DNA of 64,000 bases from contig NW_024704742.1 of assembly GCF_018977255.1 (NCBI RefSeq), forward strand, positions 12,030,001 through 12,094,000, given 5' to 3'. The notes beneath the pieces are model-generated. The model did no database searches and was not told the origin of the DNA. It saw nothing but the letters and a program-made list of their open reading frames with translations. The position numbers were made by a program, and so were the translations under genes. Below are positions 1 to 58,659 of the stretch, one piece after another. This DNA comes from Callorhinchus milii (Eukaryota). Each line of letters opens with the position of its first letter. The first letter of the stretch is position 1.

Positions 1-380
1 CATTTGCCACTTAATTGTGGCAAGTTAAAATGATCTGGCAATAATCCAACATTTAGTTATAACTGTAAATTGGAATTTAGTTGATTTGTAATATCGCATA
101 GGTAATATTTGAGAGTGGATTTGAAGTAAAATCAACAGGAATTACATGTTTTATTTCAAACAGCATTGTGTACCTTGAATATCATTTTGAATCGTGATTT
201 CAAATAGCAATAAATGCTCTTCAGCTGTTAGCCACAGCTGAAGATCTTACTCTTCAACCTGCCTACAGTCACCTCACCCTCTCCACGGCGCGGTGTCAAG
301 CTCTGCCACTGTTAAACACTACAAGTTGCTACCCCGTGTGAAGGGCCCTATTCAAATGCAAATTGTTGTTGTTATTACAC

Positions 381-580
381 CATAGAACCATGCAGCACCA
401 TTTGGCCCACAGTGTTATAGAGCAACCCAATCAGTTCCATTATCTGTTTTTTTCCTGCAAATTACAGTTTTTTTGATATCTATCTCAATGCCTCTTAAAA
501 GTTAATATGGATCTTGCCTCAAGCACCACACCTGGCAGAGCATTCCACATTCCTACAACTCTGTGTGTAGAAATTCCTAA
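381..580 (-). mobile_element. Old CR1 LINE 3' fragment
   Basis: Contains 'caccacacctggcagagcattccacattcctacaactctgtgtg', a diverged match to the CR1 3' ends at 2873-3340 and 24796-25040. Confidence 0.65.
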
Positions 581-1959
581 TGTTCCGTTTTGCTTCTTTG
601 CTAATATAATGGAAACCTGTTCAAACCACTTCATTGGAACACGGGTTCCCTTGTTGAATATTAAGGGTTTGGATCCAGAAGTTTACAAAATATGCAAATT
701 GCTTGAGGTTGCTACATCTCATGCATAAAAAAGGACAAAACGCCAGCTGGCATGGGGAAGCCAAAACAGCTAACTTCTGGGTGATCAGGTCACCACCAAA
801 GCCACTTTTTCCACAATATACAGAATCTAATAAAACCACAATGTTTTGGCAAACGCCATCAGTTAAACATATGGAAAGCAAATTATTAGCAAATAGATAG
901 AAATTGCACGCACAAATACCATTTATTGTACATGTCAAACTCTTTTCCTTTTTCAAAGAAAAAAGTAGACACGATTTGAAGATAACAACAATTTGCATTT
1001 ATATAGCTCCCCTCACACAGGATAGCTTCCCAGAGCACTTTTATGTTGCACAAATCACAAAGAGCTGTGAACATAACCCTTAAAATGGCCACACACATGT
1101 AACGAATGAAAATATTGGTAGCCTTATGAGAGTGCGATCAGTCAACCGAAGGGCAATCCTTTTAGGTGCTGCAACCTTTTCAGCAGAGGAATAAAGCGGG
1201 TACCTTTTAAAGTCATTGACTTGTAAAGGTAAATCAGAATCCAGCCATTTGAGCCAGTTTATATTCTTCAGGTAAAGGAGAGGGGATTGGGAATGGTGGA
1301 GGTTCATGTGGAGTATAATACAAGCACTGACTGGAATGAACAAATGGCCTCTTTTGATGCTATACAGTCTCTGTAATAATAATATAATAATCCTTGCATT
1401 TGATATAGCGCCTGTCTCCAAGCACATCACAGAACATACTGTAAAGTGAATTGATTGTATATTTTGTGGGTATAATCTATTCTATTCTACAGCCCAAAAT
1501 TTTCAAGAGCTACAGCCTATCTTGTGTTTAATATAACCACAATTTGTGGTATATAATCACACGGTACCATTCTATTTGTTCATTTCTGAGGCTGAGTGAT
1601 GGATGCCATGTGTGTCTTTTTGGCCCAATTCTCATCCCTTTTCACAAAAGCAATATTCTGTATTATTTAGAACCAAAACCCCCAAAAAAGGAAGAGCCGC
1701 CCAGGAATGTAACAGTACATGAAGGGCTAATAGATATTGAGGCATGGATTGTCATGAGGGGAAAGTCGAACATGTGCAGAGAATATTCTTATAACTTGCC
1801 ATAAGACTTTATTTTATTTTGTTAAAAACTCAGGCTGAGCTGAATTATTTTTAGAACAAAATATGTCAAAATAGTTTGAAGGAAGGTCTAAGGAACAAAG
1901 CATATTTGAAACATAATATGACACAAGGCAAACAGACACGATGATTTGTGATCCTAGAA

Positions 1960-2190
1960 AAGAACCTACACTTTTTTAGCATCTAAAACATCTCAAGATG
2001 CTTTGCAGTAATTACTATCACACACAGTGATTGTTTTAGGCAAATGTGGCAGACACTTCACACAAATCAAGATCCCAGAACAGCAGTCTGCTGAATGACA
2101 CCAGAAGAAACGCCCTTCTTGAAAAGTGCCAGGAAATGTTCACTGTTTGAACAATTGAACAGTTCCTCTGGTTAACATCTCATCCAAAGA
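1960..2190 (-). mobile_element. Deu-domain SINE fragment
   Basis: Reverse complement resembles the Deu-type core 'tttggatgagatgttaa...ggcact..ttcaagaag' seen at 49730-49840. Confidence 0.6.
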
Positions 2191-2191
2191 C

Positions 2192-2590
2192 GCTGGAAAA
2201 GAGAAGATTGAGAGGCGATATGACAGTTGTCTTTAAGATTCTAAAGGGGTTAGACAATGTAGATCATCATGCCAGGCTGTTCCAATTAGTCCAGAATAGT
2301 AAAACCAGAGGACACGGCCTGCAATTGAAGGGGGGTAAATTCAAAAGAAATCTACGGAAACACTATTTCAGTGAGCTAATAGTGAACCTGTGGAACAGGC
2401 TCCCCAGGGAGACGGTTGAAGGAGGAAGTTTTGATTCCTTCAACACAGAATAGGTAACTTTCTTTTAGAAAATAACATTATGAGATACAGTACATAGGTA
2501 GTTCGGGATACATGTGCATGTGACCGCCAGGAAAGTGAAACGCGAACTAAATGGAACTTGGTCTTTTTTTCGTCTAGAATTTCTTATGTT
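2192..2590 (+). mobile_element. CR1 LINE 3' fragment (ORF2 C-terminus)
   Basis: ORF 2208-2453 has RGDMTVVFKILKG...KTRGHGLQL...YFSELIVNLWNRLP, typical of the CR1 ORF2 C-terminus. Confidence 0.9.
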
Positions 2591-2872
2591 TTTAAAGACA
2601 GCACTTTTGATAATGCAGAAGCACTGCACTGAAACCAAGAGCAATGCTTTTCCAACATGGAGCTTGAACCCACAAAGGTTGTGACACAGATGCGAGATTA
2701 ATACGGGGGTTTCCATTAGAACGTATTGCAGGTAGAGCATCCGTTTGCTTATATCAGGTATTTACTGTGACCCCACACTGTACTGAGTAAGCTGAGGTGA
2801 TAGTTAATGATCTATAATTGACCTTCACTCCCAAGAGAGAAACCTGAGACAGGTTTCTGATCTTGATCACTA

Positions 2873-3720
2873 GAATCATAGAATCATAGAATGTTACGGC
2901 ACAGAAGGAGGCCATTTGGCCCATCGAGACTGTGCTGCCTCTTTGACAGAGCAAGTCACTTTCACTAACCCCAATCACCAGCTTTTTCCCCATAACCCTG
3001 CAAACCCGTCTTCCCCAGATACCTATCCAGTTCTCGCTTAAAAGCAGTTATCGAATCGGACTTCACTGCCCTTTCGGGCAGATCATTCCAAATTATAACA
3101 ACTCGCTGAGTGAAAAAATTTCTTCTAACCTCCCCTCTGCTTCTTTTGGTAGATATCTTAAGACTGTGACCACGAGTCACAGACACACCTACCAGCAGAA
3201 ACAGCTTTTTCCTATCTAGCCTGTCGAAACCTTTCATGATCTTGAAGACCTCTATCAGGTCCCCGAGGAACCTTCTCTGCTCTAATGGGAAAAGTCCTAA
3301 CTTCTCCAGCCTGTCCTCATAGCTAAGCTTTCCCATTCCTGAATCCCCTATCACAACTGTATTGCCCTTGTGAACCATGCCCTTGTCCTATTGGACAGAA
3401 TGTCCACTGCTGTCCTCATGAGAGGCTTTCACACTCACGATAGCTAATGTTGACTACCAATTAGAGACTGGTACTCTGTTGGGGGTGCTCTGCCTTGAAC
3501 AAGCCCTCTTCTTGCCCCGTCGCACTGTCACCCAATCACTTTTAGCATGAATGAAGGAATGAAGTGTGTTGGGCTCCTCTGGGAGTGGTCCTTTTCTTGA
3601 ACTCTGACCTCCCGATAGCTCCAGTATCCCTCTCTCATGGCTCCTATACAGCTATGGGCTGCTATAACTGAGTCCTAAGGGAATGAAGGTCTCCTCCACC
3701 ATGCTGTCCAGGAACCTCTC
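2873..3720 (-). mobile_element. CR1 LINE, internally deleted (ORF1 middle fused to ORF2 C-terminus); 3' part of an element whose 5' part is 8976-9309
   Basis: (ATTCTATG)n tail at 2873-2892; ORF 2965-3378 reads NTVVIGDS|GMGKLSYEDRLEKLG; ERFLDSMV at the 3720 end; close match to 45943-48724. Confidence 0.93.
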
Positions 3721-5646
3721 AGAGAGAGAGAGAGACCCAGAGAGACACACCCAGAGAGACAGACAGACACACCCAGAGAGAGAGCAGAGAGAGAGAGACA
3801 GAGACACACACCCAGAGAGAGAGAGAGAGAGACACACCCAGAGAGAGAGAGAGAGACAGAGACACACACCGAGAGAGACAGAGACACACCCAGAGAGACA
3901 GAGACACACACCCAGAGAGAGAGAGAGAGAGACAGAGACACACACCCAGAGAGAGAGAGAGACAGAGACACACACCCAGAGAGACAGAGACACACACACC
4001 CAGAGAGAGAGAGACAGAGACACACACCCAGAGAGACAGAGACACACACCCAGAGAGAGAGAGAGACAGAGACACACACCCAGAGAGAGAGAGAGACAGA
4101 GACACACACCCAGAGAGACAGAGACACACACCCAGAGAGAGAGAGAGAGACAGAGACACACACCCAGAGAGACAGAGACACACACCCAGAGAGAGAGAGA
4201 CAGAGACACACACCCAGAGAGACAGAGACACACACCCAGAGAGACAGAGACACACACCCAGAGAGACAGAGACACACACCCAGAGAGAGAGAGACAGAGA
4301 CACACACCCAGAGAGAGAGACAGAGACACACACCCAGAGAGACAGAGACACACACCCAGAGAGAGAGAGAGACAGAGACACACACCCAGAGAGACAGAGA
4401 CACACACCCAGAGAGAGAGAGACAGAGACACACACCCAGAGAGACAGAGACACACACCCAGAGAGAGAGAGAGACAGAGACACACACCCAGAGAGAGAGA
4501 CAGAGACACACACCCAGAGAGACAGAGACACACACCCAGAGAGAGAGACAGAGACACACACCCAGAGAGACAGAGACACACACCCAGAGAGAGAGAGACA
4601 GAGACACACACCCAGAGAGACAGAGACACACACCCAGAGAGAGAGAGACAGAGACACACACCCAGAGAGACAGAGACACACACCCAGAGAGAGAGAGAGA
4701 CAGAGACACACACCCAGAGAGACAGAGACACACACCCAGAGAGAGAGAGAGACAGAGACACACACCCAGAGAGACAGAGACACACACCCAGAGAGAGAGA
4801 GACAGAGACACACACCCAGAGAGACAGAGACACACACCCAGAGAGACAGAGACACACACAGAGACAGAGACACACACCCAGAGAGACAGAGACACACCCA
4901 GAGAGACAGAGACACACACCAGAGAGACAGAGACACACACCCAGAGAGAGAGAGACAGAGACACACACCCAGAGAGACAGAGACACACACCCAGAGAGAG
5001 AGACAGAGACACACACCCAGAGAGACAGAGACACACACCCAGAGAGAGAGAGAGACAGAGACACACACCCAGAGAGACAGAGACACACACCCAGAGAGAG
5101 AGAGAGACAGAGAAACACACCCAGAGAGACAGAGACACACACCCAGAGAGAGAGACAGAGACACACACCCAGAGAGGCAGAGACACACACCCAGAGAGAG
5201 AGACAGAGACACACACCCAGAGAGAGAGAGACAGAGACACACACAGAGAGACAGAGACACACACCCAGAGAGTCAGAGACACACACAGAGACAGAGACAC
5301 ACACCCAGAGAGACAGAGACACACCCAGAGAGACAGAGACACACACCCAGAGAGAGAGAGAGACAGAGACACACACCCAGAGAGACAGAGACACACACCC
5401 AGAGAGAGAGAGAGACAGAGACACACACCCAGAGAGACAGAGACACACACCCAGAGAGAGAGAGACAGAGACACACACCCAGAGAGACAGAGACACACAC
5501 CCAGAGAGAGAGAGAGACAGAGACACACACCCAGAGAGACAGAGACACACCCAGAGAGAGAGAGACACACCCAGAGAGAGAGAGAGAGACAGAGACACAC
5601 ACCGAGAAAGACAGAGACACACCCAGAGAGACAGAGACACACACCC

Positions 5647-5677
<31 letters not shown>

Positions 5678-6472
5678 AACACACCCAGAGAGAGAGAGAC
5701 AGAGACAGAGACACACACCCAGAGAGACAGAGACACACACCCAGAGAGAGAGAGAGACAGAGACACACACCCAGAGAGACAGAGACACACACCCAGAGAG
5801 AGAGACAGGGACACACACCCAGAGAGAGAGACAGAGACACACACCCAGAGAGAGAGACAGAGACACACACCCAGAGAGACAGAGACACACACCCAGAGAG
5901 AGAGAGAGAGACAGAGACACACACCCAGAGAGAGAGAGAGACAGAGACACACACCCAGAGAGACAGAGACACACCCAGAGAGACAGAGACACACACCCAG
6001 AGAGAGAGAGACAGAGACACACACCCAGAGAGAGAGAGAGACAGAGACACACACCCAGAGAGACAGAGACACACACCCAGAGAGAGAGAGACAGAGACAC
6101 ACACCCAGAGAGACAGAGACACACACCCAGAGAGAGAGAGAGACAGAGACACACACCCAGAGAGACAGAGACACACACCCAGAGAGAGAGAGAGACAGAG
6201 ACACACACCCAGAGAGACAGAGAGAGAGAGACAGAGACACACACCCAGAGAGACAGAGAGAGAGAGAGACCCAGAGAGACAGAGAGACAGACAGACATAC
6301 ACCCAGAGAGAGAGTCAGAGAGAGAGACAGAGAAACACACCCAGAGAGACACAGAGAGAGAGACAGAGACACACAGAGAGAGAGAGATACAGACAAACAC
6401 AGACAGAGATACAGAGACACACATACACAGACAGAGAGAGAGAGAGATAGACAAACATAGACAGAGACACAG
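3721..6472. repeat. Compound micro/minisatellite, unit about CCC(AG)nAC-AGAGAC(AC)n, ~20-30 bp, ~2.75 kb
   Basis: Directly visible. The + strand is almost T-free, so the long ORFs over it (RERETETHTQ / CVSLSLW) are artefacts. Confidence 0.98.
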
Positions 6473-7139
6473 GGTGTGGCCATTGTATTACTACTAAGTG
6501 GTCAAGGACTCCGTGACACTACCCACCCGAAGAGGGCTGTAGTAATCCAAGTTGTATTAAAAATTACTGTTTAAAAATGGGCAGTGTGTGTGTGTGTGTG
6601 TAATAAAAGTACAGCATTACACCTTTATATTTTTATCACTTAATAATAAATAAATCTCATTGGAATTAACTCATAAATACTTCACTCATAAAGTAAGTGG
6701 TGAGATTGTAACCTTCTCCTTGGTAAAGAGGAGGTCCTCCTGCTCGATGTAGTGCAATTTCAGTGACTGGAAATAATCCCTATTTGCACATCTTTAGCAA
6801 GGAATTATGTTATTAAATATCTCAAATGAGCCCCCCATTATTATTTTGTCTGTATCGGTGCCCAAACTACATGTCAGCTGCATTTGTGCAGTATCTTTTT
6901 TTACACAAAATGAAATGTCAGTTTTGTAAAACAGGAACAGCTGACTGTAGATCTGCTCCCAAGTTCATTATCTTATATTCAAAACGATAAACATATTCTC
7001 CTTTACGTGTAACAATTATCACTGCCATTTGCTTGTCTATTCCCAAAGGGGTTATGCAATTTACATATCTTTTCCAACAAAGTATATCTGATATAATTTG
7101 CAGAATGTCACTGCAATGAGCTTCCAGTCATAAAGCGTT

Positions 7140-7410
7140 CAGATAAAGTGCACCATCCTTCAGATAAGATGTTAAACTGAGGTCCCATCTGCCTATTCAG
7201 ATGGACGTTAAAGATCCCATGGCACTATTCACAGGAGAATGAAGTTTCTCCCAATGTCCCAACCAACAATCCTTCAGTTAATTGGGCATCCACCTTCTGG
7301 CTGTTTGTTGGAGATTGCTCTGAATAAATTGGCTCCTTGATTTGTCTACAAAAATACACAGTCACTACACTTTAGAGAAAACTCTGTGAAGTACTTTGAG
7401 CCATTTCATA
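7140..7410 (+). mobile_element. Deu-domain SINE
   Basis: 'gataagatgttaaactgaggtcccatctgcctattcagatggacgttaaagatcccatggcactattc' matches the Deu core as I recall it for AmnSINE1/SacSINE1-type SINEs. Confidence 0.8.
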
Positions 7411-7694
7411 GGAACTTAGATAAAATCTTCAATGTTATATAACACCTTTCACATGAAGTAACATCCCAGAGCGCCTCACAGTGGTGAAGTCTGACAACGA
7501 GCCAGGGAGAGTCACCACTGCCCTACATGAGAAAACGGTTGAAGGTTTGAATAATAATAATAATCCTTGGATTTGACATAGCACCTTATCACGTTGTTTA
7601 GACGTCTCAAAATGCTTCAAGAATATATTGGAAAGTAGATTGACTGTATATTTTTTGAGCGAAACACGGCAGCCAATTCACAGAACAGTTTCCC

Positions 7695-8122
7695 ATTCAT
7701 GGCCTTGCACCCTCCTACCTCTCCGACCTACTATCCCCCTACGTACCTGCCCATACCCTCCGTTCCTCTGGCTCTGGTCTGCTCCACATCCCCTGCCCCA
7801 ACCGCCCTATCATCGGTGTCCAGGCTTTCAGCCTCTCAGCCCCTAGGCTCTGGAATTCCATCCCCCAGTGCCTTTGCCTTGCTTCCTCCCTTTCCTCCTT
7901 CAAGGCCAGTCTCAAGACCTTTCTCTTCAACCGTGCCTTCAGCTCCCCTCTCGACTCTTTACCCCCTCCTTGCTCCCTCCCTTCCCTCCCCTCCTTGCTC
8001 GCTCCCTTCCCTCACCCTGACCATTGCCCCCTGCTTGGGCCCCGACAGCTGACTGTTCAGCACTTTGGGACGTCCTCCCGACGTGAAAGGCGCTCTATAA
8101 ATGCAATCTTGTTGTTGTTGTT
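7695..8122 (+). mobile_element. L2 LINE 3' end
   Basis: Pyrimidine-rich 3' UTR ending 'gggacgtcctcccgacgtgaaaggcgctctataaatgcaa(ttg)n'. Confidence 0.85.
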
Positions 8123-8284
8123 TAGGTGGTGGTGAGATGGTGATGTGGAGTACAGGATGTGCTGCTATGGAATAGGTTTAGGGAGGATTTAGTTTGTAAA
8201 ACACAGATTAGTCTGTGGTGGAGCAGGCTTGTTAGGACGAATGACCTTCACCTGTCTTGATTTATGTTCCTTTGTATGTAAATG

Positions 8285-8588
8285 TGGAGTCCTGTAGCTC
8301 AGTGGTTGGAGCACTCGCTTTGCAAGTGAGAGACCTGAATTCAATTCCAGACAGGGCGAAACCTTGGGCAAGTTTCCTTACTCCACACGCCTCACAATAA
8401 TCCCTCCAAAACCAAAAACAATAATAAAAATTGGTCATTTTCAATCTATGACTGTTTGTGGGACATTGCTGTGCGCAATTGGCTGCTGCGTTCGCCCACA
8501 AATATACAATCAATTCACTTTACTGTGTGTTCTGTGAAACACTTTGGGACGTCCTCCTGATGTGAAAAGGATTATTATTATCATTATA
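8285..8588 (+). mobile_element. tRNA-derived SINE (young family, L2-type tail)
   Basis: Head 'ggagtcctgtagctcagtggtt' (A box), anticodon-like 'ttgca', B-box-like 'ttcaattcc', (TTA)n tail; many near-identical copies in the window. Confidence 0.93.
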
Positions 8589-8975
8589 TGAAAAATGTAT
8601 GTGGAATAATAGAAGAGAAAATTCTCACAAGACTAAGGAGGCTATTGATTCAGAAACATAACTATTATACAACTTTAAGATATGCAGAGGTTGAAAATAA
8701 TTTTCAACTAATTGTCAACTTTCAAAATAATTTTCAACTTTCAACTTTTTAAATAATTTTCCCCCCTCAATAAATTGCTTTTCCACTTTGAAGCACTTTG
8801 AGATGTCTCAAAGACGTGATAAGGCGCTATATCAAATGCAAGGATTATATATTATACTGGCTGCCCTTATCACGTCACCAAAGGAACTATTCTTCATGCT
8901 TTAGCCTGGGCAATGCGAATTGGCAAGGCCTCATTGAATAATCAAAAGTTTTCTAGAAGAGTGCCGTATAGTGAT

Positions 8976-9309
8976 AGGGGATAGCTGCAAGAGCCTTACT
9001 CGAGCAGAGAGCCCAGAATGAGCTATATCCGGAGTGAGGCGAGGCCAGAGTGAGAAGGAATTGGGTGAGAGTGGGAATTAGGTAAGGAGGGGGAAGTAGG
9101 TGCAGGTTATATATCTAAGGGGAAGTAAGAAGAGATAGATAATGGCCTGGCAGGTGATGTGCGAGGAATGTGCTATGTGGGAGTTGATAGAGGGCAACCT
9201 GAGCCCAGGTGACTTCATCTGCAGCAAATGTCTGCAACTGAGCAAGCTCCAACTTAGAATAGCTGAGCTGGAGTCTCAAGTGCAGACATTGCGCTCCATC
9301 AGGGACAGT
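8976..9309 (+). mobile_element. CR1 LINE 5' UTR and ORF1 N-terminus (CxxC...CxxC plus coiled coil)
   Basis: ORF 9142: MAWQVMCEECAMWEL...FICSKCLQLSKLQLRIAELESQVQTLRSIRDS; same architecture as ORF 28655-28840. Confidence 0.88.
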
Positions 9310-9334
9310 NNNNNNNNNNNNNNNNNNNNNNNNN
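9310..9334. other. Assembly gap (25 N)
   Basis: Run of N. Confidence 1.
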
Positions 9335-10775
9335 TTCCAATTAGTCCAGAATAGTAAAACCAGAGGACACGGCCTGCAATTGAAGGGGGGTAAATTCAAA
9401 AGAAATCTACGGAAACACTATTTCAGTGAGCTAATAGTGAACCTGTGGAACAGGCTCCCCAGGGAGACGGTTGAAGGAGGAAGTTTTGATTCCTTCAACA
9501 CAGAATAGGTAACTTTCTTTTAGAAAATAACATTATGAGATACAGTACATAGGTAGTTCGGGATACATGTGCATGTGACCGCCAGGAAAGTGAAACGCGA
9601 ACTAAATGGAACTTGGTCTTTTTTTCGTCTAGAATTTCTTATGTTTTTAAAGACAGCACTTTTGATAATGCAGAAGCACTGCACTGAAACCAAGAGCAAT
9701 GCTTTTCCAACATGGAGCTTGAACCCACAAAGGTTGTGACACAGATGCGAGATTAATACGGGGGTTTCCATTAGAACGTATTGCAGGTAGAGCATCCGTT
9801 TGCTTATATCAGGTATTTACTGTGACCCCACACTGTACTGAGTAAGCTGAGGTGATAGTTAATGATCTATAATTGACCTTCACTCCCAAGAGAGAAACCT
9901 GAGACAGGTTTCTGATCTTGATCACTAGAATCATAGAATCATAGAATGTTACGGCACAGAAGGAGGCCATTTGGCCCATCGAGACTGTGCTGCCTCTTTG
10001 ACAGAGCAAGTCACTTTCACTAACCCCAATCACCAGCTTTTTCCCCATAACCCTGCAAACCCGTCTTCCCCAGATACCTATCCAGTTCTCGCTTAAAAGC
10101 AGTTATCGAATCGGACTTCACTGCCCTTTCGGGCAGATCATTCCAAATTATAACAACTCGCTGAGTGAAAAAATTTCTTCTAACCTCCCCTCTGCTTCTT
10201 TTGGTAGATATCTTAAGACTGTGACCACGAGTCACAGACACACCTACCAGCAGAAACAGCTTTTTCCTATCTAGCCTGTCGAAACCTTTCATGATCTTGA
10301 AGACCTCTATCAGGTCCCCGAGGAACCTTCTCTGCTCTAATGGGAAAAGTCCTAACTTCTCCAGCCTGTCCTCATAGCTAAGCTTTCCCATTCCTGAATC
10401 CCCTATCACAACTGTATTGCCCTTGTGAACCATGCCCTTGTCCTATTGGACAGAATGTCCACTGCTGTCCTCATGAGAGGCTTTCACACTCACGATAGCT
10501 AATGTTGACTACCAATTAGAGACTGGTACTCTGTTGGGGGTGCTCTGCCTTGAACAAGCCCTCTTCTTGCCCCGTCGCACTGTCACCCAATCACTTTTAG
10601 CATGAATGAAGGAATGAAGTGTGTTGGGCTCCTCTGGGAGTGGTCCTTTTCTTGAACTCTGACCTCCCGATAGCTCCAGTATCCCTCTCTCATGGCTCCT
10701 ATACAGCTATGGGCTGCTATAACTGAGTCCTAAGGGAATGAAGGTCTCCTCCACCATGCTGTCCAGGAACCTCTC
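9335..10775 (+). repeat. Direct duplicate of 2280-3720 (offset 7055)
   Basis: Appears identical by eye; ORF pairs 2465/9520, 2754/9809 and 2965/10020 have identical translations. Confidence 0.97.
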
Positions 10776-11000
10776 CTGTCTCTCTGGGTGTGTGTGTCTC
10801 TGTCTCTCTGGGTGTGTGTCTCTGTCTCTCTCTCTCTCTCTGGGTGTGTGTCTCTGTCTCTCTGGGTGTGTGTCTCTGTCTCTCTCTCTCTCTGGGTGTG
10901 TCTCTCTCTCTCTCTGGGTGTGTGTCTCTCTCTCTCTCTCTCTGGGTGTGTGTCTCTGTCTCTCTGGGTGTTGTCTCTGTACTTTGCTCTGTCTCTCTCC
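10776..11000. repeat. Same satellite as 3721-6472, opposite orientation
   Basis: 'ctgtctctctgggtgtgtgtctctgtc' is the reverse complement of the 3721-6472 unit. Confidence 0.96.
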
Positions 11001-12589
11001 TATCACCAGTTTGAAATAGATTCACAGATTCTGGTGATAATTACCGTCTGGAGCCGCTCTGTGTTCCACAGCGCAGATCAAACTTGGGCTCCGACACCCA
11101 GTGTGACTGTCAATGTGAACCACCTGCAATCACAGTGTGTGACGACTGGTTTGTGGAAAATTACAGAAAGAATTACACTGCTATGGTTGGCTTCGTTAAA
11201 CATTTATAAATGGACTTTCAGATGCACTGATTAATTTAATGACTGTTTCAACAAAGGAACAGAATGCTCATTTATCAAATCCTTGAAATTCTGCTCTGTC
11301 CTAATTTGATATTGATCTCTGGAACAATATCTAGAATCTGCTTTGAGTTGGAAATCACAGCAAAATGGGTATGAGCACATTAAAGCTTCAGAATTTTTGG
11401 CAATCTGTACAGTCATAATTTTGGGTGACCATCAACAAGATAATGTTCTAAAAGTTCAGAAATTGCAATCTCCGAAAGAATAATGATCAATATCTAATCC
11501 ACATTGGTGTTGATCATGTTGTCCCCATAGTAACACATGGAATATTTACTGTTGCTATGGGACATAAATTTGAAAATAATGTTTTTCTCCGAACATTCAC
11601 AACCATGCAAACACAAGTATATTTTATTTCAATTTATCTGTAAATCCCAGTTTATGCTTTGCTTCATTTATCCATGAACAACCATTTCGTGAGATTATGC
11701 ACAGGAATTTCATGAATATAAAATGAAATAAAAATAAAACGGGAATTGCAGCATTACAGGAAAGGTAGGAAATATGAAGACCATAACTTTGCTTTATTTG
11801 TAATTTGTAATAAAAAAATTCATAGCAAATTTTGTATTCAATAAAATATCTTCAAACAAAATTAGCAAGCCTCTTGATATTTAGTTGTATGGCAGTATAA
11901 CATGTAATTAATTGTTCACCACTGTACCTATGCTTAATACAAAAATTACACCTAAGTGCTATGCGTATAAAGTCTGCTGTAACTACACCATAAATCGCAC
12001 ACACAAAACAGCAATCCTCAGAATTCACTCTGGTTTTATTCATCCAGTTTCATTAATCATTCGCACAAATCAGGATTGCAAATATATTTTTCTGGTGAAG
12101 TGTTAACATTTCTGGATTGTGGGAGGGATGGTACTCTGTGAATTGATGTCATCTGGAAACTGAATTGTACTCAATGAACTTCATTCAACTTGCTACCGAA
12201 TAATCATTAGAGATTTTTTCTATTGTCCACAATTCTTGGCTTGATCTAAATAAAAATTGGGAGAGAGAAGTATTCTACTCGGTGCAATCATGTGGGTTTA
12301 TAGGCTCATGTGGCAATGATACCTATAATATTGTTGCAATTTTAAGGCTCACAGACACAACACAGGCACATACTATGTGGATCCTGGCAAGATTAAATAA
12401 TAGACACACACTATACACTATATGATATCCATACTAAATGGGATTGGCCACAGTGCGGCTATAACATCATTGTTGATAATGAAACGTGTGCATGTGTCAC
12501 TCTCTCACTCTGCCACTATTCCATATTAAAATGGATTAATTGTGATTAATTATTTTAAGACAATCCAAGACAATTCAATCCAAGATTAA

Positions 12590-45942: not shown

Positions 45943-48724
45943 TAGATTCATAGATTCATAGAATGTTATGGCACAGAAGGAGGCCATTCAGCCCATCGAG
46001 TCTGTGCCGGTTCTTTGACAGAGCAAGTCACTTTCACTAACCCCAATCACCAGCTTTCTCCCCATATCCCTGCAAACCCGTCTTCCCCAGATACCTATCC
46101 AGTTCTCGCTTAAAAGCAGTTATCAAATCGGACTTCACTGCCCTTTCAGGCAGATCATTCCAAATTATAACAACTCGCTGAGTGAAACAATTTCTTCTAA
46201 CCTCCCCTCTGCTTCTTTTGGTAGATATCTTAAGACTGTGACCACTGGTCATAGACACACCTACCAGCAGAAACAGCTTTTCCCTATCTAGCTAGTCGAA
46301 ACCTTTCATGATCTTGAAGACCTCTATCAGGTCCCCGCGTAACCTTTTCTGCTCTAATGGGAAATGTCCCAACTTCTCCAGCCTGTCCTCATAGCTAAGG
46401 TTCCCCATTCCTGGTATCATTCTCGTGAATCTCCTCTGCACCCTTTCCAGTGCTTTAATGTCCTTCCTGAAGTAAGGTGCCTGGAACTGGACGCAGTACT
46501 CCAGCTGAAGCCTAACCAGTGTTTTGTATAGATTAAGCATAACCTCCCTACTCTTATAGCTTAAAGCTCCGTACACCGAATGCCTTTTTTACTACCTTAT
46601 CTACCTGCCCCGCTACCTTTAATGATTCGCTTACTTGAACAACCAGATCTCTCTGTACGTTCACCCCCCTTAAGTTTGAGCTACCAAGTCTATATTGCCT
46701 CCTATCATTTTTCCTACCTAAGTGTATCACCTCACACTTATCCACATTGAAATCCATCTGCCACATGTCAGCCCATTCCACCATTCTGTGTATGTCTGCC
46801 TGCAGTTGGTTACAGTCCTCCTCACTATTTACTACCCTACCTAACTTTGTATCATCTGCAAACTTGGAAATAGTGCTCTCTATGCCCAAGTCCAGATCAT
46901 TAATATATATTAGAAAGAGCAGTGGTCCCAATACCGATCCCTGGGGGACACCGCTGCACACCTCCTTCCATTTCGAGAAACACCCATTAACCACCACCCT
47001 CTGCTTTCTGTCACTCAGCCAGTTCTTAATCCAAACTGCCACTGTTCCCTTAATACCGTGGGCCTCTACATTTTTTATTAATCTCTTATGCGGTACTGTG
47101 TCAAAAGCCTTTTTGAAATCCATGTTAATAACGTCCACCGCATTTCCCTCATCAACCCTCGCAGTCACCTCTTCAAAAAATTCTATTAGATTTGTTAGGC
47201 AAGATTTGCCTTTAACAAATCCATGTTGGCTGTCTCTAATTACCTAATTTTCCTGTAAATAGAGATTTATTTTGTCCCGGATTATGGTCTCCAGTAATTT
47301 TCCTATTACCGAAGTTAGGCTGACTGGCCTGTAATTTCCAGTTTGTCTTTCTGCCCCTTTTTGTAGAGTGGGGTAACATTAGCCACTCTCCAGTCTCTTG
47401 GCACCACTCCTGTGTCCAATGAAGATTGAAATATAATGGCCAAAGCCTCCGCTATTTGAACCCGTATCTCCCACAGCAACCTTGGCTGAAACCCATCTGG
47501 TCCTGGTGACTTATTAATTTTGAGCCCAGTCAATCTTTTCAGAACTTCCTCTCTGTCTGTAGTAATCTGATCTATGTCCTCTACCCTCTCATCCAATACT
47601 GCGGCCTTTGGGGCATCCATTTCCGTTGTGAAGACAGATGCAAAGTACTCGTTCAGTACATCAGCCATGCCCTCTGCCTCCACAAGAAGATTGCTGTCAT
47701 TGTCTTTGATTGTCTGTCCGGTTGGTCTGTATTAAACCCCTATCAGTGTAACCACTCCTTTCTTATTTCTTATCTCTAAGCAGATGGATTCTGTTGTCGG
47801 GCCCTCCAGAGCCTCGTTCCTTTCTACAGCTATAATTGTATCCTTAACTAATACTGCCATTCCTCCTCCTTTTCTTCCTTCTCTATCCATCCTGAACACA
47901 TTTAACTCCCATTCCTGTCCTGGCTTGAGCCATGTCTCGGTTACTGCCACCACATCGTAACCCCCTACCGCCAGTTGAACCTGCAGCTCATCAACCTTAT
48001 TCCCTAAGCTACGTGCATTTAGGTACATGCATTTGAGGAAATTGTCTGCTTGTACCTGCTATACACTTCCCACTTGTATTTTTCTTTTAATCTCTAATCC
48101 ATTGTTTATCCTTGGATACCCATCCCCACTCGACACCAGTTTAAATCCACCCCTACAGCATTTGATAATCTCTTGGCAAGGAAGCTCACCCCTGCCTTGC
48201 TTAAGTGCCGCCCATCCTCCAGGTAAAGATCCCACCTCCCCCAGTAGTGGTCCCAATTGTCCAGAAAATGGAAACCTTTTTTTCCGGACCATTTCTCCAG
48301 CCAATTGTTCATGCCCCTGATCCTTTCATTATGATGCCTTGTTGCCCGAGGTACTGGGAGTAATGCAGAGATCACCACCTTGGATGTTCTGGACTTGAGT
48401 TTGCTCCCCAGCTTTTGATACTCGCCCTGGAGCATCTCAGCCCTCTTCTTACCAATATCGTGGGTCCCCACATGGACCACAACTTCTGGACATTCTCCTT
48501 CCCCCCGAAGAATCTTGTCCATGCGCTCTATGAAGTCCACTACCCTTGCACCAGGAAGGCAGCAAACCATCCTAGCCTCACGATTCTGATTACAGTAGAT
48601 CCTGTCAGTGCCTCTTACTGTTGAATCACCTATCACAACTGTATTGCCCTTGTGAACCATGCCCTTGTCCTGTTGGACAGAATGTCCACTGCTGTCCTCA
48701 CGAGAGGCTTCCACGCTCTCAATA
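45943..48724 (-). mobile_element. CR1 LINE, 5'-truncated within ORF1, with internal ORF2 deletion
   Basis: ORF1 SGNH-esterase-like GDS...VHVGTHD...DGRHL; EN MYLNARSL...VTETWL; RT DFKKAFD, SGVPQGSVLGP, FADD; tail at 45943-45965. Confidence 0.96.
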
Positions 48725-50010: not shown

Positions 50011-50935
50011 TATTTTTAAGATTAACGTCTAAAATGATTATGCAAGCACTCCGAGACCCTGCCACATGTGAAGGGCGCGATATAAATGCAAGTCATTGTT
50101 GTTGTACTATTATTCTATTACCATGTATGTATGCTGGGAGCAACTCAACACTAAGGAGGCCACATAGCTCTCTTCTATTCCCCGCCCCCAAGTCAATCCT
50201 TAATATGAGAATTAGTACTGCAGATGGCAGGCAAAGTGTTGCCATTGCAAAGCAGCAGCTGTGTACTGAAGATAACGCTAGGGTGACTGTAAGCTCTGTT
50301 AACCTGACAGAGACAGATAGATACTGCTTTCTGACTGAAACCCTGTAAATTTTCTTCGCAACATAAGCTCACTTCAACAGATGCTTCAGCTATAAGTCTT
50401 CCAGCTGCAGTTCTTAATCTTGAAATCAATTTCTATCCTCGACCGCGAGTGTAACATAAACAGTAACTTTTCATTACTTCAAACTGGCTACTTTTGCTCT
50501 CCTTTTCAATTTCGAAATTGCTCAAAAATCCCCTTTCTTGCCCTGCTTCATGGGACGCTCATCTGCAAGTTAAAAAGTTTATGGAAACACAACTGCCGTT
50601 TCCACTCGGAAATATTAAGATCACTTTTTCAAGTTGACATGATCCACTGATGGCACAAATAGAAGACTGAGATTCAAGTCTTATAAAGATACACCTGAAA
50701 ATAGAGATCACGGTTCAAAACATGTTAGTCTAGTACCTGAAGTATTAATAAAAAGTCGACCAAAGAAAAAAAGTATCAATTTGTGGAAGTGTGATCAGGT
50801 TGATCCTCATTGTTAGAGGTATAAGAAGATCAGAGGGCTGACTCGAAGGTTAGGTCTCTAAAGCAATTGAAAGGATATCTCTGAGGAAACTTTACATAAG
50901 TGCTAAATAGCAAAGAAAAAAAAAGTTGAGAAAAT

Positions 50936-57810: not shown

Positions 57811-58659
57811 GCCGATTGGGTTGTCATCAGCAGTGCCCCGGAGTACTGTGGATCTGCCTGGCTCTGGAACCAGACTAAGAATTAAAGCTCCAACTGCAAA
57901 TACATTCTGTAGCCAATATGCTAGAGAACCACTGTATGAAAACGTATCCTGATTTCAATACCTTCAATACAGTCTTGTGCTCTGTTTGCTTATATATACA
58001 TGGAATGTATGTTGCTGCCAGAAGTAGTACAATAAAGTGGGAATCCGAGAAAGTATAGCCCTGAGGAGGAGGCTAATGAGCCAATGCTTGTGCCCTTGGA
58101 GTTAATTTACTCCAACCTGATTTCCTACTTTTCTTCCCTTACATTTTTATACTGTATTACTGTTTAAATATTTAATCATTTCTCTCTTAAATGTTGTAGT
58201 TTTGGCCTCAGTAGCCAATTGTGGAATCATTCAATTTTCTGACAAAAACATTTACATAGAACTTTACAGCACGGAAATGGGGCATCAGCCAACCAGGCCA
58301 TACAGTGTATACACTCCACATAAGCCTCCATCCTTCCGAATCCCCTTTCCCATACCCCTGTTCTCTCTTATGTATCTGTCAATTGGGGTTAAGTGCATTG
58401 ATAAGTAATCCTTGTATTTGATATATGCCATATCACATTGTCAAGATGTCTCAAAGTGCTTCACAGGATTTGTAGGCACAAAAACTTTTGATTTCTGCTT
58501 CAAGAACAGCTATTGTTAATGAGTTCCACATTCCACATTCCACATTCTCACCATCTTTTGCAATAAGTTTTTACCAAATTCCCTTTTTCAGATTAGCTAC
58601 TTTTAGACCTTTATTATTATTTTTATCTTTCAAACATAGCTAAACTATGCTCTAACTAC

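What the first reader, a model, noticed from the sequence alone, without database searches (positions are those of the whole stretch)
3721..9309. 5.6-kb inversion that splits a single CR1 element within ORF1
Seen: the + strand CR1 5' piece ends at ...ATCAGGGACAGT (RSIRDS, 9309). The - strand piece begins GAGAGGTTCCTGGAC (ERFLDS, 3720). Flipping 3721-9309 gives an uninterrupted in-frame ORF1 (...LRSIRDSERFLDSMV). The element's TSD is also restored: ATCACTA at 2866-2872 and its reverse complement TAGTGAT at 8969-8975. The flip also puts the 2.75-kb satellite in the same orientation as, and next to, 10776-11000. Inference: the ancestral order was 1-3720, rc(9309-3721), 10776 onward, with one break in CR1 at CTCTC^ACTGTC and one in the satellite, which contains the near-identical CTCTCTCTGTC.
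Basis: partly seen in the sequence, partly recalled or inferred. Interest (0 to 1): 0.8.

Follow-up and report, generated by a model that had tools for sequence, protein, structure and literature searches.

The report
Apparent inversion at an assembly gap
The two halves of a broken jumping gene do fit together, but the supposed inversion ends at an assembly gap followed by a duplicated flank, so it is most likely an assembly error, not a rearrangement.

Summary
The sequence-level observation holds. Window 8974/8976-9309 (+) and 3720-2873 (-) are two abutting parts of one LINE insertion. In 7 of 7 other genomic copies the two parts are directly contiguous with no base lost or gained. A 7-bp target-site duplication, ATCACTA, flanks both ends.

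Base 9309 is followed by the window's only N run, 25 N at 9310-9334. The sequence after that gap, 9335-10775, is a 1441-bp copy of 2280-3720 with no mismatch. This copy ends at the same LINE base. There it joins the satellite in the opposite orientation (10776-10980).

So the scaffold gives two incompatible continuations of one flank. The second inversion junction is not in the assembly at all. In Logan contigs of three of four other samples, the duplicated flank has single-copy depth. No contig listed bridges either junction.

My reading: the ancestral order is correctly inferred, but a genomic inversion is not demonstrated. The most likely cause is an unresolved, misassembled locus at a 2.75-kb satellite (confidence 0.62). 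A real inversion remains possible (about 0.2). Interest is low.

The parts
2280..3720 (+). First copy of the duplicated flank. It holds a unique flank, part of a high-copy repeat and the minus-strand LINE part X, and it ends at the break point.
   Evidence: 100% identical over 1441 bp to 9335-10775. 2190-2594 is a high-copy repeat.
2866..2872 (+). Target-site duplication ATCACTA at the 3' end of the LINE.
2873..3341 (-). LINE 3' end: ORF2 C-terminal coding remnant and an octamer-repeat tail.
   Evidence: 94% copy at 45943-46413. Translation. No Pfam hit.
3342..3720 (-). ORF1-region segment of the same element (ERFLDS... to the start of the esterase domain). It is joined to the 3' end by an internal deletion.
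   Evidence: Matches nt 1-381 downstream of the break in 7 of 7 other copies. Translation.
3721..6471 (.). Satellite, 52/22-bp period, in AG-rich orientation.
   Evidence: (TRF).
6472..8968 (.). Segment U. Its left part is single copy (6473-7182). 7076-8884 carries high-copy repeats.
   Evidence: unique in the genome. (depth; contigs with 0 differences in all 4 runs).
8969..8975 (+). Reverse complement of the target-site duplication (TAGTGAT).
   Evidence: Family homology starts at 8974.
8976..9309 (+). LINE 5' end with the ORF1 start (ATG 9142, 56 codons). It ends at the last base before the gap.
9310..9334 (.). 25-N run, the only N run in the window. I read it as a scaffold gap.
9335..10775 (+). 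Second, exact copy of 2280-3720. It starts at the first base after the gap and ends at the same LINE base.
   Evidence: Single-copy contig depth in other samples.
10776..10980 (.). Short block of the same satellite in CT-rich orientation, followed by unique sequence B.
   Evidence: B is unique in the genome.

Best explanation
The scaffold at this place is an unresolved assembly of one locus, not a faithful picture of a chromosome. A LINE with an esterase-bearing ORF1 (CR1-like, internally deleted, about 1.19 kb) inserted once on the minus strand between flank A and segment U, making a 7-bp target-site duplication. Next to U lies a satellite of about 3 kb.

Two incompatible reconstructions of this locus were placed one after the other with a 25-N spacer.
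- Contig 1 (to 9309) runs A, X, then the next 5.6 kb in reverse orientation. It stops at the exact base where it would re-enter the element.
- Contig 2 (from 9335) starts 1441 bp upstream of the same point. It runs A', X, then straight into the last 205 bp of the satellite and on into B.

Shown: the gap, the exact duplicate, the two conflicting continuations of X, and the absence of the second inversion junction.

Inferred:
- The duplication is false.
- The true order, in at least one haplotype, is A, intact element, rc(U), satellite (CT), B.
- The cause is misorientation or misjoining of a small piece during scaffolding or gap filling at a satellite. A heterozygous deletion allele (X|Z) may have aggravated it.
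For: 1. The only N run in the window is 9310-9334, directly after the claimed breakpoint.
2. 2280-3720 equals 9335-10775 with 0 mismatches and 0 gaps over 1441 bp. The duplicate starts at the first base after the gap and ends at the same LINE base.
3. X is followed by AGAGAG... at 3721 and by CTGTCTCTC... at 10776. These are two contradictory adjacencies. The junction expected for an inversion (9309 joined to 10776) is nowhere in the assembly.
4. The two element halves are complementary to the base. All 7 natural copies read GGGACAGT|GAGAG. A clean cut with no loss or gain, used in both contigs, fits pieces cut and re-joined by software better than two independent repair events. This point is inference.
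5. Per-contig depth in Logan contigs of the other samples (table 8). The table lists contigs on the duplicated flank for 3 of the 4 runs:
   - X15: flank 7.75 and 15; U 9.6; B 9.
   - X17: flank 11.8; U 12.2; B 12.7.
   - X18: flank 8.61, 13.2 and 10.1; U 11.8; B 16.8.
   - X16: no contig listed on the unique part of the flank.
   So there is no doubling in those 3 runs.
6. The start of contig 2 (position 2280) lies in the middle of a high-copy repeat at 2190-2594. That is an arbitrary point such as a read end.
7. U and B have no second copy in the 991.5-Mb assembly.
8. Background from passages of PMC3504050. A widely used long-read gap filler defines gaps as 25 or more N. It extends both flanks. 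It reports 'overfilled' gaps, where the extensions do not overlap, and attributes them to draft errors including inversions. I did not establish that this assembly used such a tool.
Against: - The left junction 3720/3721 is seamless, with no N. The contig then runs through the whole 2.75-kb satellite into unique U. That is what a real inversion allele, or real reads with this junction, would give. I found no specific software path that produces a seamless X|rc(Y) join.
- The depth argument comes from other samples, not the assembled individual, and the tool warns that contig depth is a poor copy-number measure.
- No contig listed bridges 9309 or 10775/10776. The intact (un-inverted) order was therefore not observed directly either.
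- In 264 kb examined (the window) this is the only N run longer than one base. I could not show that such gaps in this assembly usually carry false duplicates.
Confidence: 0.62

Rival explanations
1. A real 5.6-kb inversion, fixed or polymorphic, with breaks in the LINE and in the satellite. The assembler failed at the right junction. The A'-X head of contig 2 is then a separate artefact.
For: - Junction 3720/3721 is seamless and continuous through 2.75 kb of satellite into unique U.
- The halves are exactly complementary and the TSD is restored by flipping.
- After flipping, the satellite blocks have the same orientation.
Against: - The right junction is absent. After a real inversion only 205 bp of satellite would separate the element 5' end from unique B. 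Long reads should cross that easily, yet the assembly has a gap there.
- The sequence reaching B from the left is A'-X, not the element 5' end.
- The satellite phase across the proposed join is atypical. Only 1-2 of 43 internal occurrences of the 10776 head (16-nt probe; 45 with the 12-nt probe) have a comparable predecessor, so a shared second breakpoint is not shown.
Confidence: 0.2
2. Both junctions are real alleles in a heterozygous individual. One haplotype carries the inverted segment (X|rc(Y)|Z). The other lacks the segment (X|Z). The assembler laid the two arms of the bubble in tandem across a gap.
For: - The layout X-rc(Y)-gap-A'X-Z is what a linearised insertion/deletion bubble looks like.
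- The 100% identity of the duplicate fits shared polishing.
Against: - It needs an inversion and a deletion that use the same two break points to the base. Both are blunt joins at ...CCTCTC|, and there is no microhomology that would excise rc(Y) precisely.
- In the four other samples U has the same contig depth as B (table 8). A deletion allele is therefore not common there.
Confidence: 0.1
3. The scaffold is literally correct: a real inverted segment followed by a real 1.4-kb duplication of the flank, that is, a complex duplication-inversion rearrangement.
For: It takes the sequence at face value.
Against: - The duplicate starts exactly at the gap edge and has 0 differences in 1441 bp.
- The flank has single-copy depth in 3 of 3 runs with listed contigs there.
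- The same LINE base would have to be used three times as a break point.
Confidence: 0.03

Closest known systems
False duplication at contig boundaries, or overfilled gaps, in scaffolded and gap-filled assemblies
   Same: - A fixed short N spacer.
- The sequence after the gap repeats sequence before it at 100% identity.
- Two flank extensions that cannot be merged.
- The locus sits at a satellite.
- Passages of PMC3504050 describe overfilled gaps and suspect inversions and draft errors as causes.
   Different: - The duplicate is not at the very end of the left contig. It lies 5.6 kb inside it, and the tail of that contig is in inverted orientation.
- The pipeline used for this assembly was not established here.
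Inversion that splits a transposable element, a classical marker for inferring ancestral order from split TE halves and TSDs
   Same: - Two halves of one insertion lie on opposite strands.
- The halves are exactly complementary.
- Flipping the segment restores the TSD.
   Different: A real case shows both junctions. Here the second junction is missing and is replaced by a gap and a duplicate.
Twin-priming 5' inversion of LINE insertions (recalled from the L1 literature, not read here)
   Same: One LINE insertion has its 5' part inverted relative to its 3' part.
   Different: - In twin priming the two parts are adjacent, and the TSD abuts the internal end of the inverted part.
- Here 5.25 kb of satellite and unique DNA lies between the parts, and the TSD abuts the true 5' end.
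- Rejected.

Membership tests
CR1-like LINE (non-LTR retrotransposon with esterase-bearing ORF1) | ORF1 followed by ORF2 with an AP endonuclease in full-length family members | tested here: met
   In natural copy L003 an ORF1 of 176 aa (MAWQVMCEEC...RSIRDSERFLDS...) is followed by a GDSL esterase (PF13472, E 2.5e-10). Then comes Exo_endo_phos (PF03372, E 4.2e-13).
CR1-like LINE (non-LTR retrotransposon with esterase-bearing ORF1) | Reverse transcriptase that groups with the CR1 clade | not tested
   The fetched loci end before the RT domain, and the window copy has lost it by internal deletion. The clade name CR1 therefore rests on the 3' end only.
CR1-like LINE (non-LTR retrotransposon with esterase-bearing ORF1) | 3' end with short octamer repeats instead of a poly(A) tail. 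That this is CR1-typical is recalled, not from a call. | tested here: met
   2873-2895 reads GAATCATAGAATCATAGAATG, that is (ATTCTATG)n on the element strand. The 94% copy at 45944 has the same kind of end.
Genomic inversion | Both novel junctions present and contiguous in one molecule | tested here: not met
   The left junction is present at 3720/3721. The right junction is absent and replaced by 25 N and a duplicate of the left flank.
Genomic inversion | Independent support from reads or other individuals | tested here: inconclusive
   No listed piece of the Logan contigs of X15-X18 bridges 9309 or 10775/10776. 715 joints and most pieces were not shown.
False duplication at an assembly gap | An exact duplicate that abuts the gap | tested here: met
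   1441 bp, 0 mismatches, starting at the first base after the N run.
False duplication at an assembly gap | The duplicated sequence is single copy in read data | tested here: inconclusive
   Contig depths of 7.75-15 on the flank compare with 7.6-16.8 on U and B in X15, X17 and X18. These are other samples, and contig depth is only a rough proxy.

The most novel reading that the evidence does not exclude
Both X|satellite(AG) and X|satellite(CT) are real molecules. They would be the inversional and deletional outcomes of cutting the same two sites: the LINE at CTCTC^ACTGTC and the H-DNA-prone GA/CT satellite. That would be recurrent, site-specific double-strand breakage at a mirror-repeat satellite, with both products captured in one individual.
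Probability: 0.06. Interest if true: 0.5.

Novelty: not a real feature. Interest (0 to 1): 0.1.

Why it matters
If the inversion were real, it would be an ordinary small structural variant whose polarity is given by a split LINE. That is useful as a marker but not surprising.

The practical value of this check is the opposite. It flags 2280-10775 of the window (G000:C1 about 12,032,280-12,040,775) as a misassembled stretch with a false 1.4-kb duplication and a probably misoriented 5.6-kb piece. Structural-variant or repeat analyses should not take this stretch at face value.

It also shows that a rearrangement read from raw sequence should first be checked for N runs and flanking duplicates.

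Tried and rejected
- **Logan contigs of four other samples.** The contigs are short and break at repeats. No listed piece bridges 9309, 10775/10776 or the satellite. The tool showed 15 joints and left 715 unshown, so neither order was seen.
- **Alternative haplotig in the assembly.** U and B each occur once.
- **Satellite phase continuity across the proposed join rc(3721)|10776.** The join is atypical but attested: 1-2 of 43 (16-nt probe) or 45 (12-nt probe) internal occurrences of the 10776 head are preceded by a long (CT)n run. Inconclusive.
- **Decay of satellite units toward 3721 as a sign of a natural array edge.** The first windows score 0.72 and 0.75 against an interior of 0.82 +- 0.06 (minimum 0.63). 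Inconclusive.
- **Sampling other gaps of the assembly.** The 200 kb downstream holds only three single N, each next to a homopolymer, and no further gap.
- **V(D)J-type recombination as the source of paired inversional and deletional joints.** A six-frame scan of the window for the loose J-like motif G.G[TS].[LVI].[VI] gave 2 hits, at 57860 (+) and 50603 (-). Neither has the preceding F/W, so nothing indicates an antigen-receptor J cluster. Rejected.
- **Twin priming.** Rejected on the position of the TSD and the 5.25 kb of intervening DNA.
- **Earlier notes of this scan.** None exist for this genome.
- **Gap-filler literature.** The passages confirm the 25-N gap definition and the 'overfilled' class. 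They do not state that 25 N are written into such gaps. That detail is my recollection only.
Full report
**What is in the sequence**

The window is G000:C1:12030001-12094000 of a 991.5-Mb assembly.
- The + strand piece ends ...CCATCAGGGACAGT at 9309.
- The - strand piece begins GAGAGGTTCCTGGAC at 3720.
- ATCACTA lies at 2866-2872 and TAGTGAT at 8969-8975.
- ORF1 starts at ATG 9142 and runs 56 codons to 9309, ending on a codon boundary.
- The minus piece in frame 1 reads ERFLDSMVEETFIPLGLSYSSP and then hits a stop. The restored reading frame is therefore in phase, but only 22 codons stay open.

**The two pieces are halves of one element**

I searched the assembly with 8976-9310 and took the eight best loci: L001, which is the window itself, and seven others, L002-L008. 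In 7 of 7 of these others, the base matching 9309 is immediately followed by the base matching 3720. All read ...GGGACAGT|GAGAG... with nothing lost or gained.

Natural copy L003 has these open frames:
- a 176-aa ORF1 with ...LRSIRDSERFLDSMV...;
- a GDSL esterase (PF13472, E 2.5e-10);
- an AP endonuclease (PF03372, E 4.2e-13).

This is a LINE with an esterase-bearing ORF1. The octamer-repeat 3' end fits CR1, though that this is CR1-typical is recalled. I did not test the RT clade.

Only 3720-3340 continues the family's ORF1 region. 2871-3341 is a LINE 3' end with a 94% relative at 45943-46413. The window copy is therefore internally deleted, at GDS|GMGKL near 3340, and measures about 1.19 kb.

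Family homology starts at 8974, so 5 to 7 bases of the TSD are unambiguous. A 7-mer match with +-3 slack at both ends occurs for about 0.5% of random site pairs in this window.

The window has one N run, 25 N at 9310-9334, directly after the claimed breakpoint.

The sequence after it, 9335-10775, is identical to 2280-3720 over 1441 bp, with 0 mismatches and 0 gaps. The duplicate begins at the first base after the gap. It ends at the very same LINE base (...GTCCAGGAACCTCTC).

After this base the first copy continues AGAGAGAGAG..., the satellite in AG orientation at 3721-6471. The second copy continues CTGTCTCTCTGGG..., the satellite in CT orientation at 10776-10980, and then unique B.

The scaffold therefore makes two incompatible statements about what follows X. 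The junction that a real inversion must have, 9309 joined to 10776, is not in the assembly.

**Is the duplication real?**

U (6473-7182) and B (10981-12000) occur once in the assembly. No alternative haplotig exists to compare with.

Four runs of the same species label from one other study hold 55-66% of the words of 6473-9309. I laid their Logan contigs on 6473-12500. Table 8 lists contigs on the duplicated flank for 3 of the 4 runs:

| Run | Flank contigs | U | B |
|---|---|---|---|
| X15 | 7.75 (9530-9955), 15 (9455-9554) | 9.6 | 9 |
| X17 | 11.8 | 12.2 | 12.7 |
| X18 | 8.61, 13.2, 10.1 | 11.8 | 16.8 |

X16 has no listed contig on the unique part of the flank. A sequence present twice should show about double depth, and none of these does. 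This evidence is weak. The samples are not the assembled individual, and the tool warns against reading depth as copy number.

The same table shows contigs crossing the U|element boundary (8827-9005 in X15, 8827-9025 in X16). It also shows contigs crossing the A|element boundary (up to 9955 in X15, X17 and X18). The insertion itself is thus shared with other individuals.

No listed piece bridges 9309 or 10775/10776. Most rows were not shown. The orientation of the 5.6-kb segment in other individuals stays unknown.

**Other tests**

- The start of contig 2 (equivalent to 2280) lies inside a high-copy repeat of about 400 bp at 2190-2594. The first look found 5442 candidates, and the 38 scored hits outside this locus are 85-86% identical. 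It is an arbitrary point such as a read end, not a repeat edge.
- The satellite phase across the proposed join is atypical but attested. Unit decay toward 3721 is within the interior range. Neither result shows nor excludes a break inside the array.
- The motif CTCTCTCTGTC occurs 3 times in 3721-6471 and 0 times in 10776-10980.
- Both X|AG and X|CT are blunt joins at the same base, and the LINE halves are cut without loss. An inversion and a deletion that share break points to the base are hard to derive from each other biologically. No microhomology would excise the inverted piece precisely. Pieces cut at graph or alignment boundaries and re-joined by software would look like this. This last point is inference.
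- In the 200 kb downstream there is no other gap, only three single N next to homopolymers.
- Passages of PMC3504050 show that a common long-read gap filler treats 25 or more N as a gap and extends both flanks. It reports 'overfilled' gaps whose extensions do not overlap, and suspects inversions and other draft errors as causes. PMC6240028 (passages) confirms 25 as that tool's default minimum gap. Whether such a tool was used here was not established. That it writes 25 N into such gaps is my recollection.

**Verdict**

The anatomy (split element, TSD, satellite orientation) is real in the assembly, and the ancestral order is correctly deduced. A genomic inversion is not demonstrated.
- One junction is missing.
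- It is replaced by a gap and an exact duplicate of the flank.
- That duplicate carries a contradictory junction.

My confidences:

| Explanation | Confidence |
|---|---|
| Unresolved or misassembled locus at a satellite, perhaps aggravated by a heterozygous deletion allele | 0.62 |
| Real inversion with a botched right junction | 0.2 |
| Two real alleles linearised across the gap | 0.1 |
| Scaffold taken literally | 0.03 |

The strongest point against my reading is the seamless left junction, which runs through the whole satellite into unique U. Only reads of the assembled individual or PCR can settle it. Interest is low. The practical outcome is to flag 2280-10775 as unreliable.

Noticed in passing
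window 3320-3365 (junction near 3340): The split LINE copy is also internally deleted. The start of the esterase domain (…VVIGDS) is fused in frame to the ORF2 C-terminal remnant (GMGKLSYEDRLEKLGLF…). The whole insertion is therefore only about 1.19 kb.
   Followed up: partly
window 45943-46413: A second LINE 3' end of the same family, 94% identical to 2871-3341, with the same kind of octamer-repeat terminus and different flanks.
   Followed up: partly
window 2190-2594 (and its copy from 9335): A very abundant repeat of about 400 bp that encodes a LINE ORF2 C-terminus-like peptide. The first look found 5442 candidates in the genome, and the 38 scored hits outside this locus are 85-86% identical.
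   Followed up: partly
G000:C1:12107068, 12152937, 12272171 (loci L017, L021, L033): Single N letters, each directly next to a run of 6-7 T or 7 A. They look like ambiguous homopolymer lengths in the consensus, not gaps.
   Followed up: partly
window 7076-8884: Segment U carries repeats whose summed word depth in the Logan contigs of four samples is extremely high, up to about 600,000 against about 10 for single-copy sequence. There are many skipping joints between 7372 and 8826.
   Followed up: no
window about 57860 (+): A peptide GSGTRLRIK in one frame resembles an immunoglobulin or T-cell-receptor J-segment core but lacks the preceding F/W. It is one of two hits of the loose motif in six frames. 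The other, at 50603 (-), is SGNGSCVSI-like.
   Followed up: no
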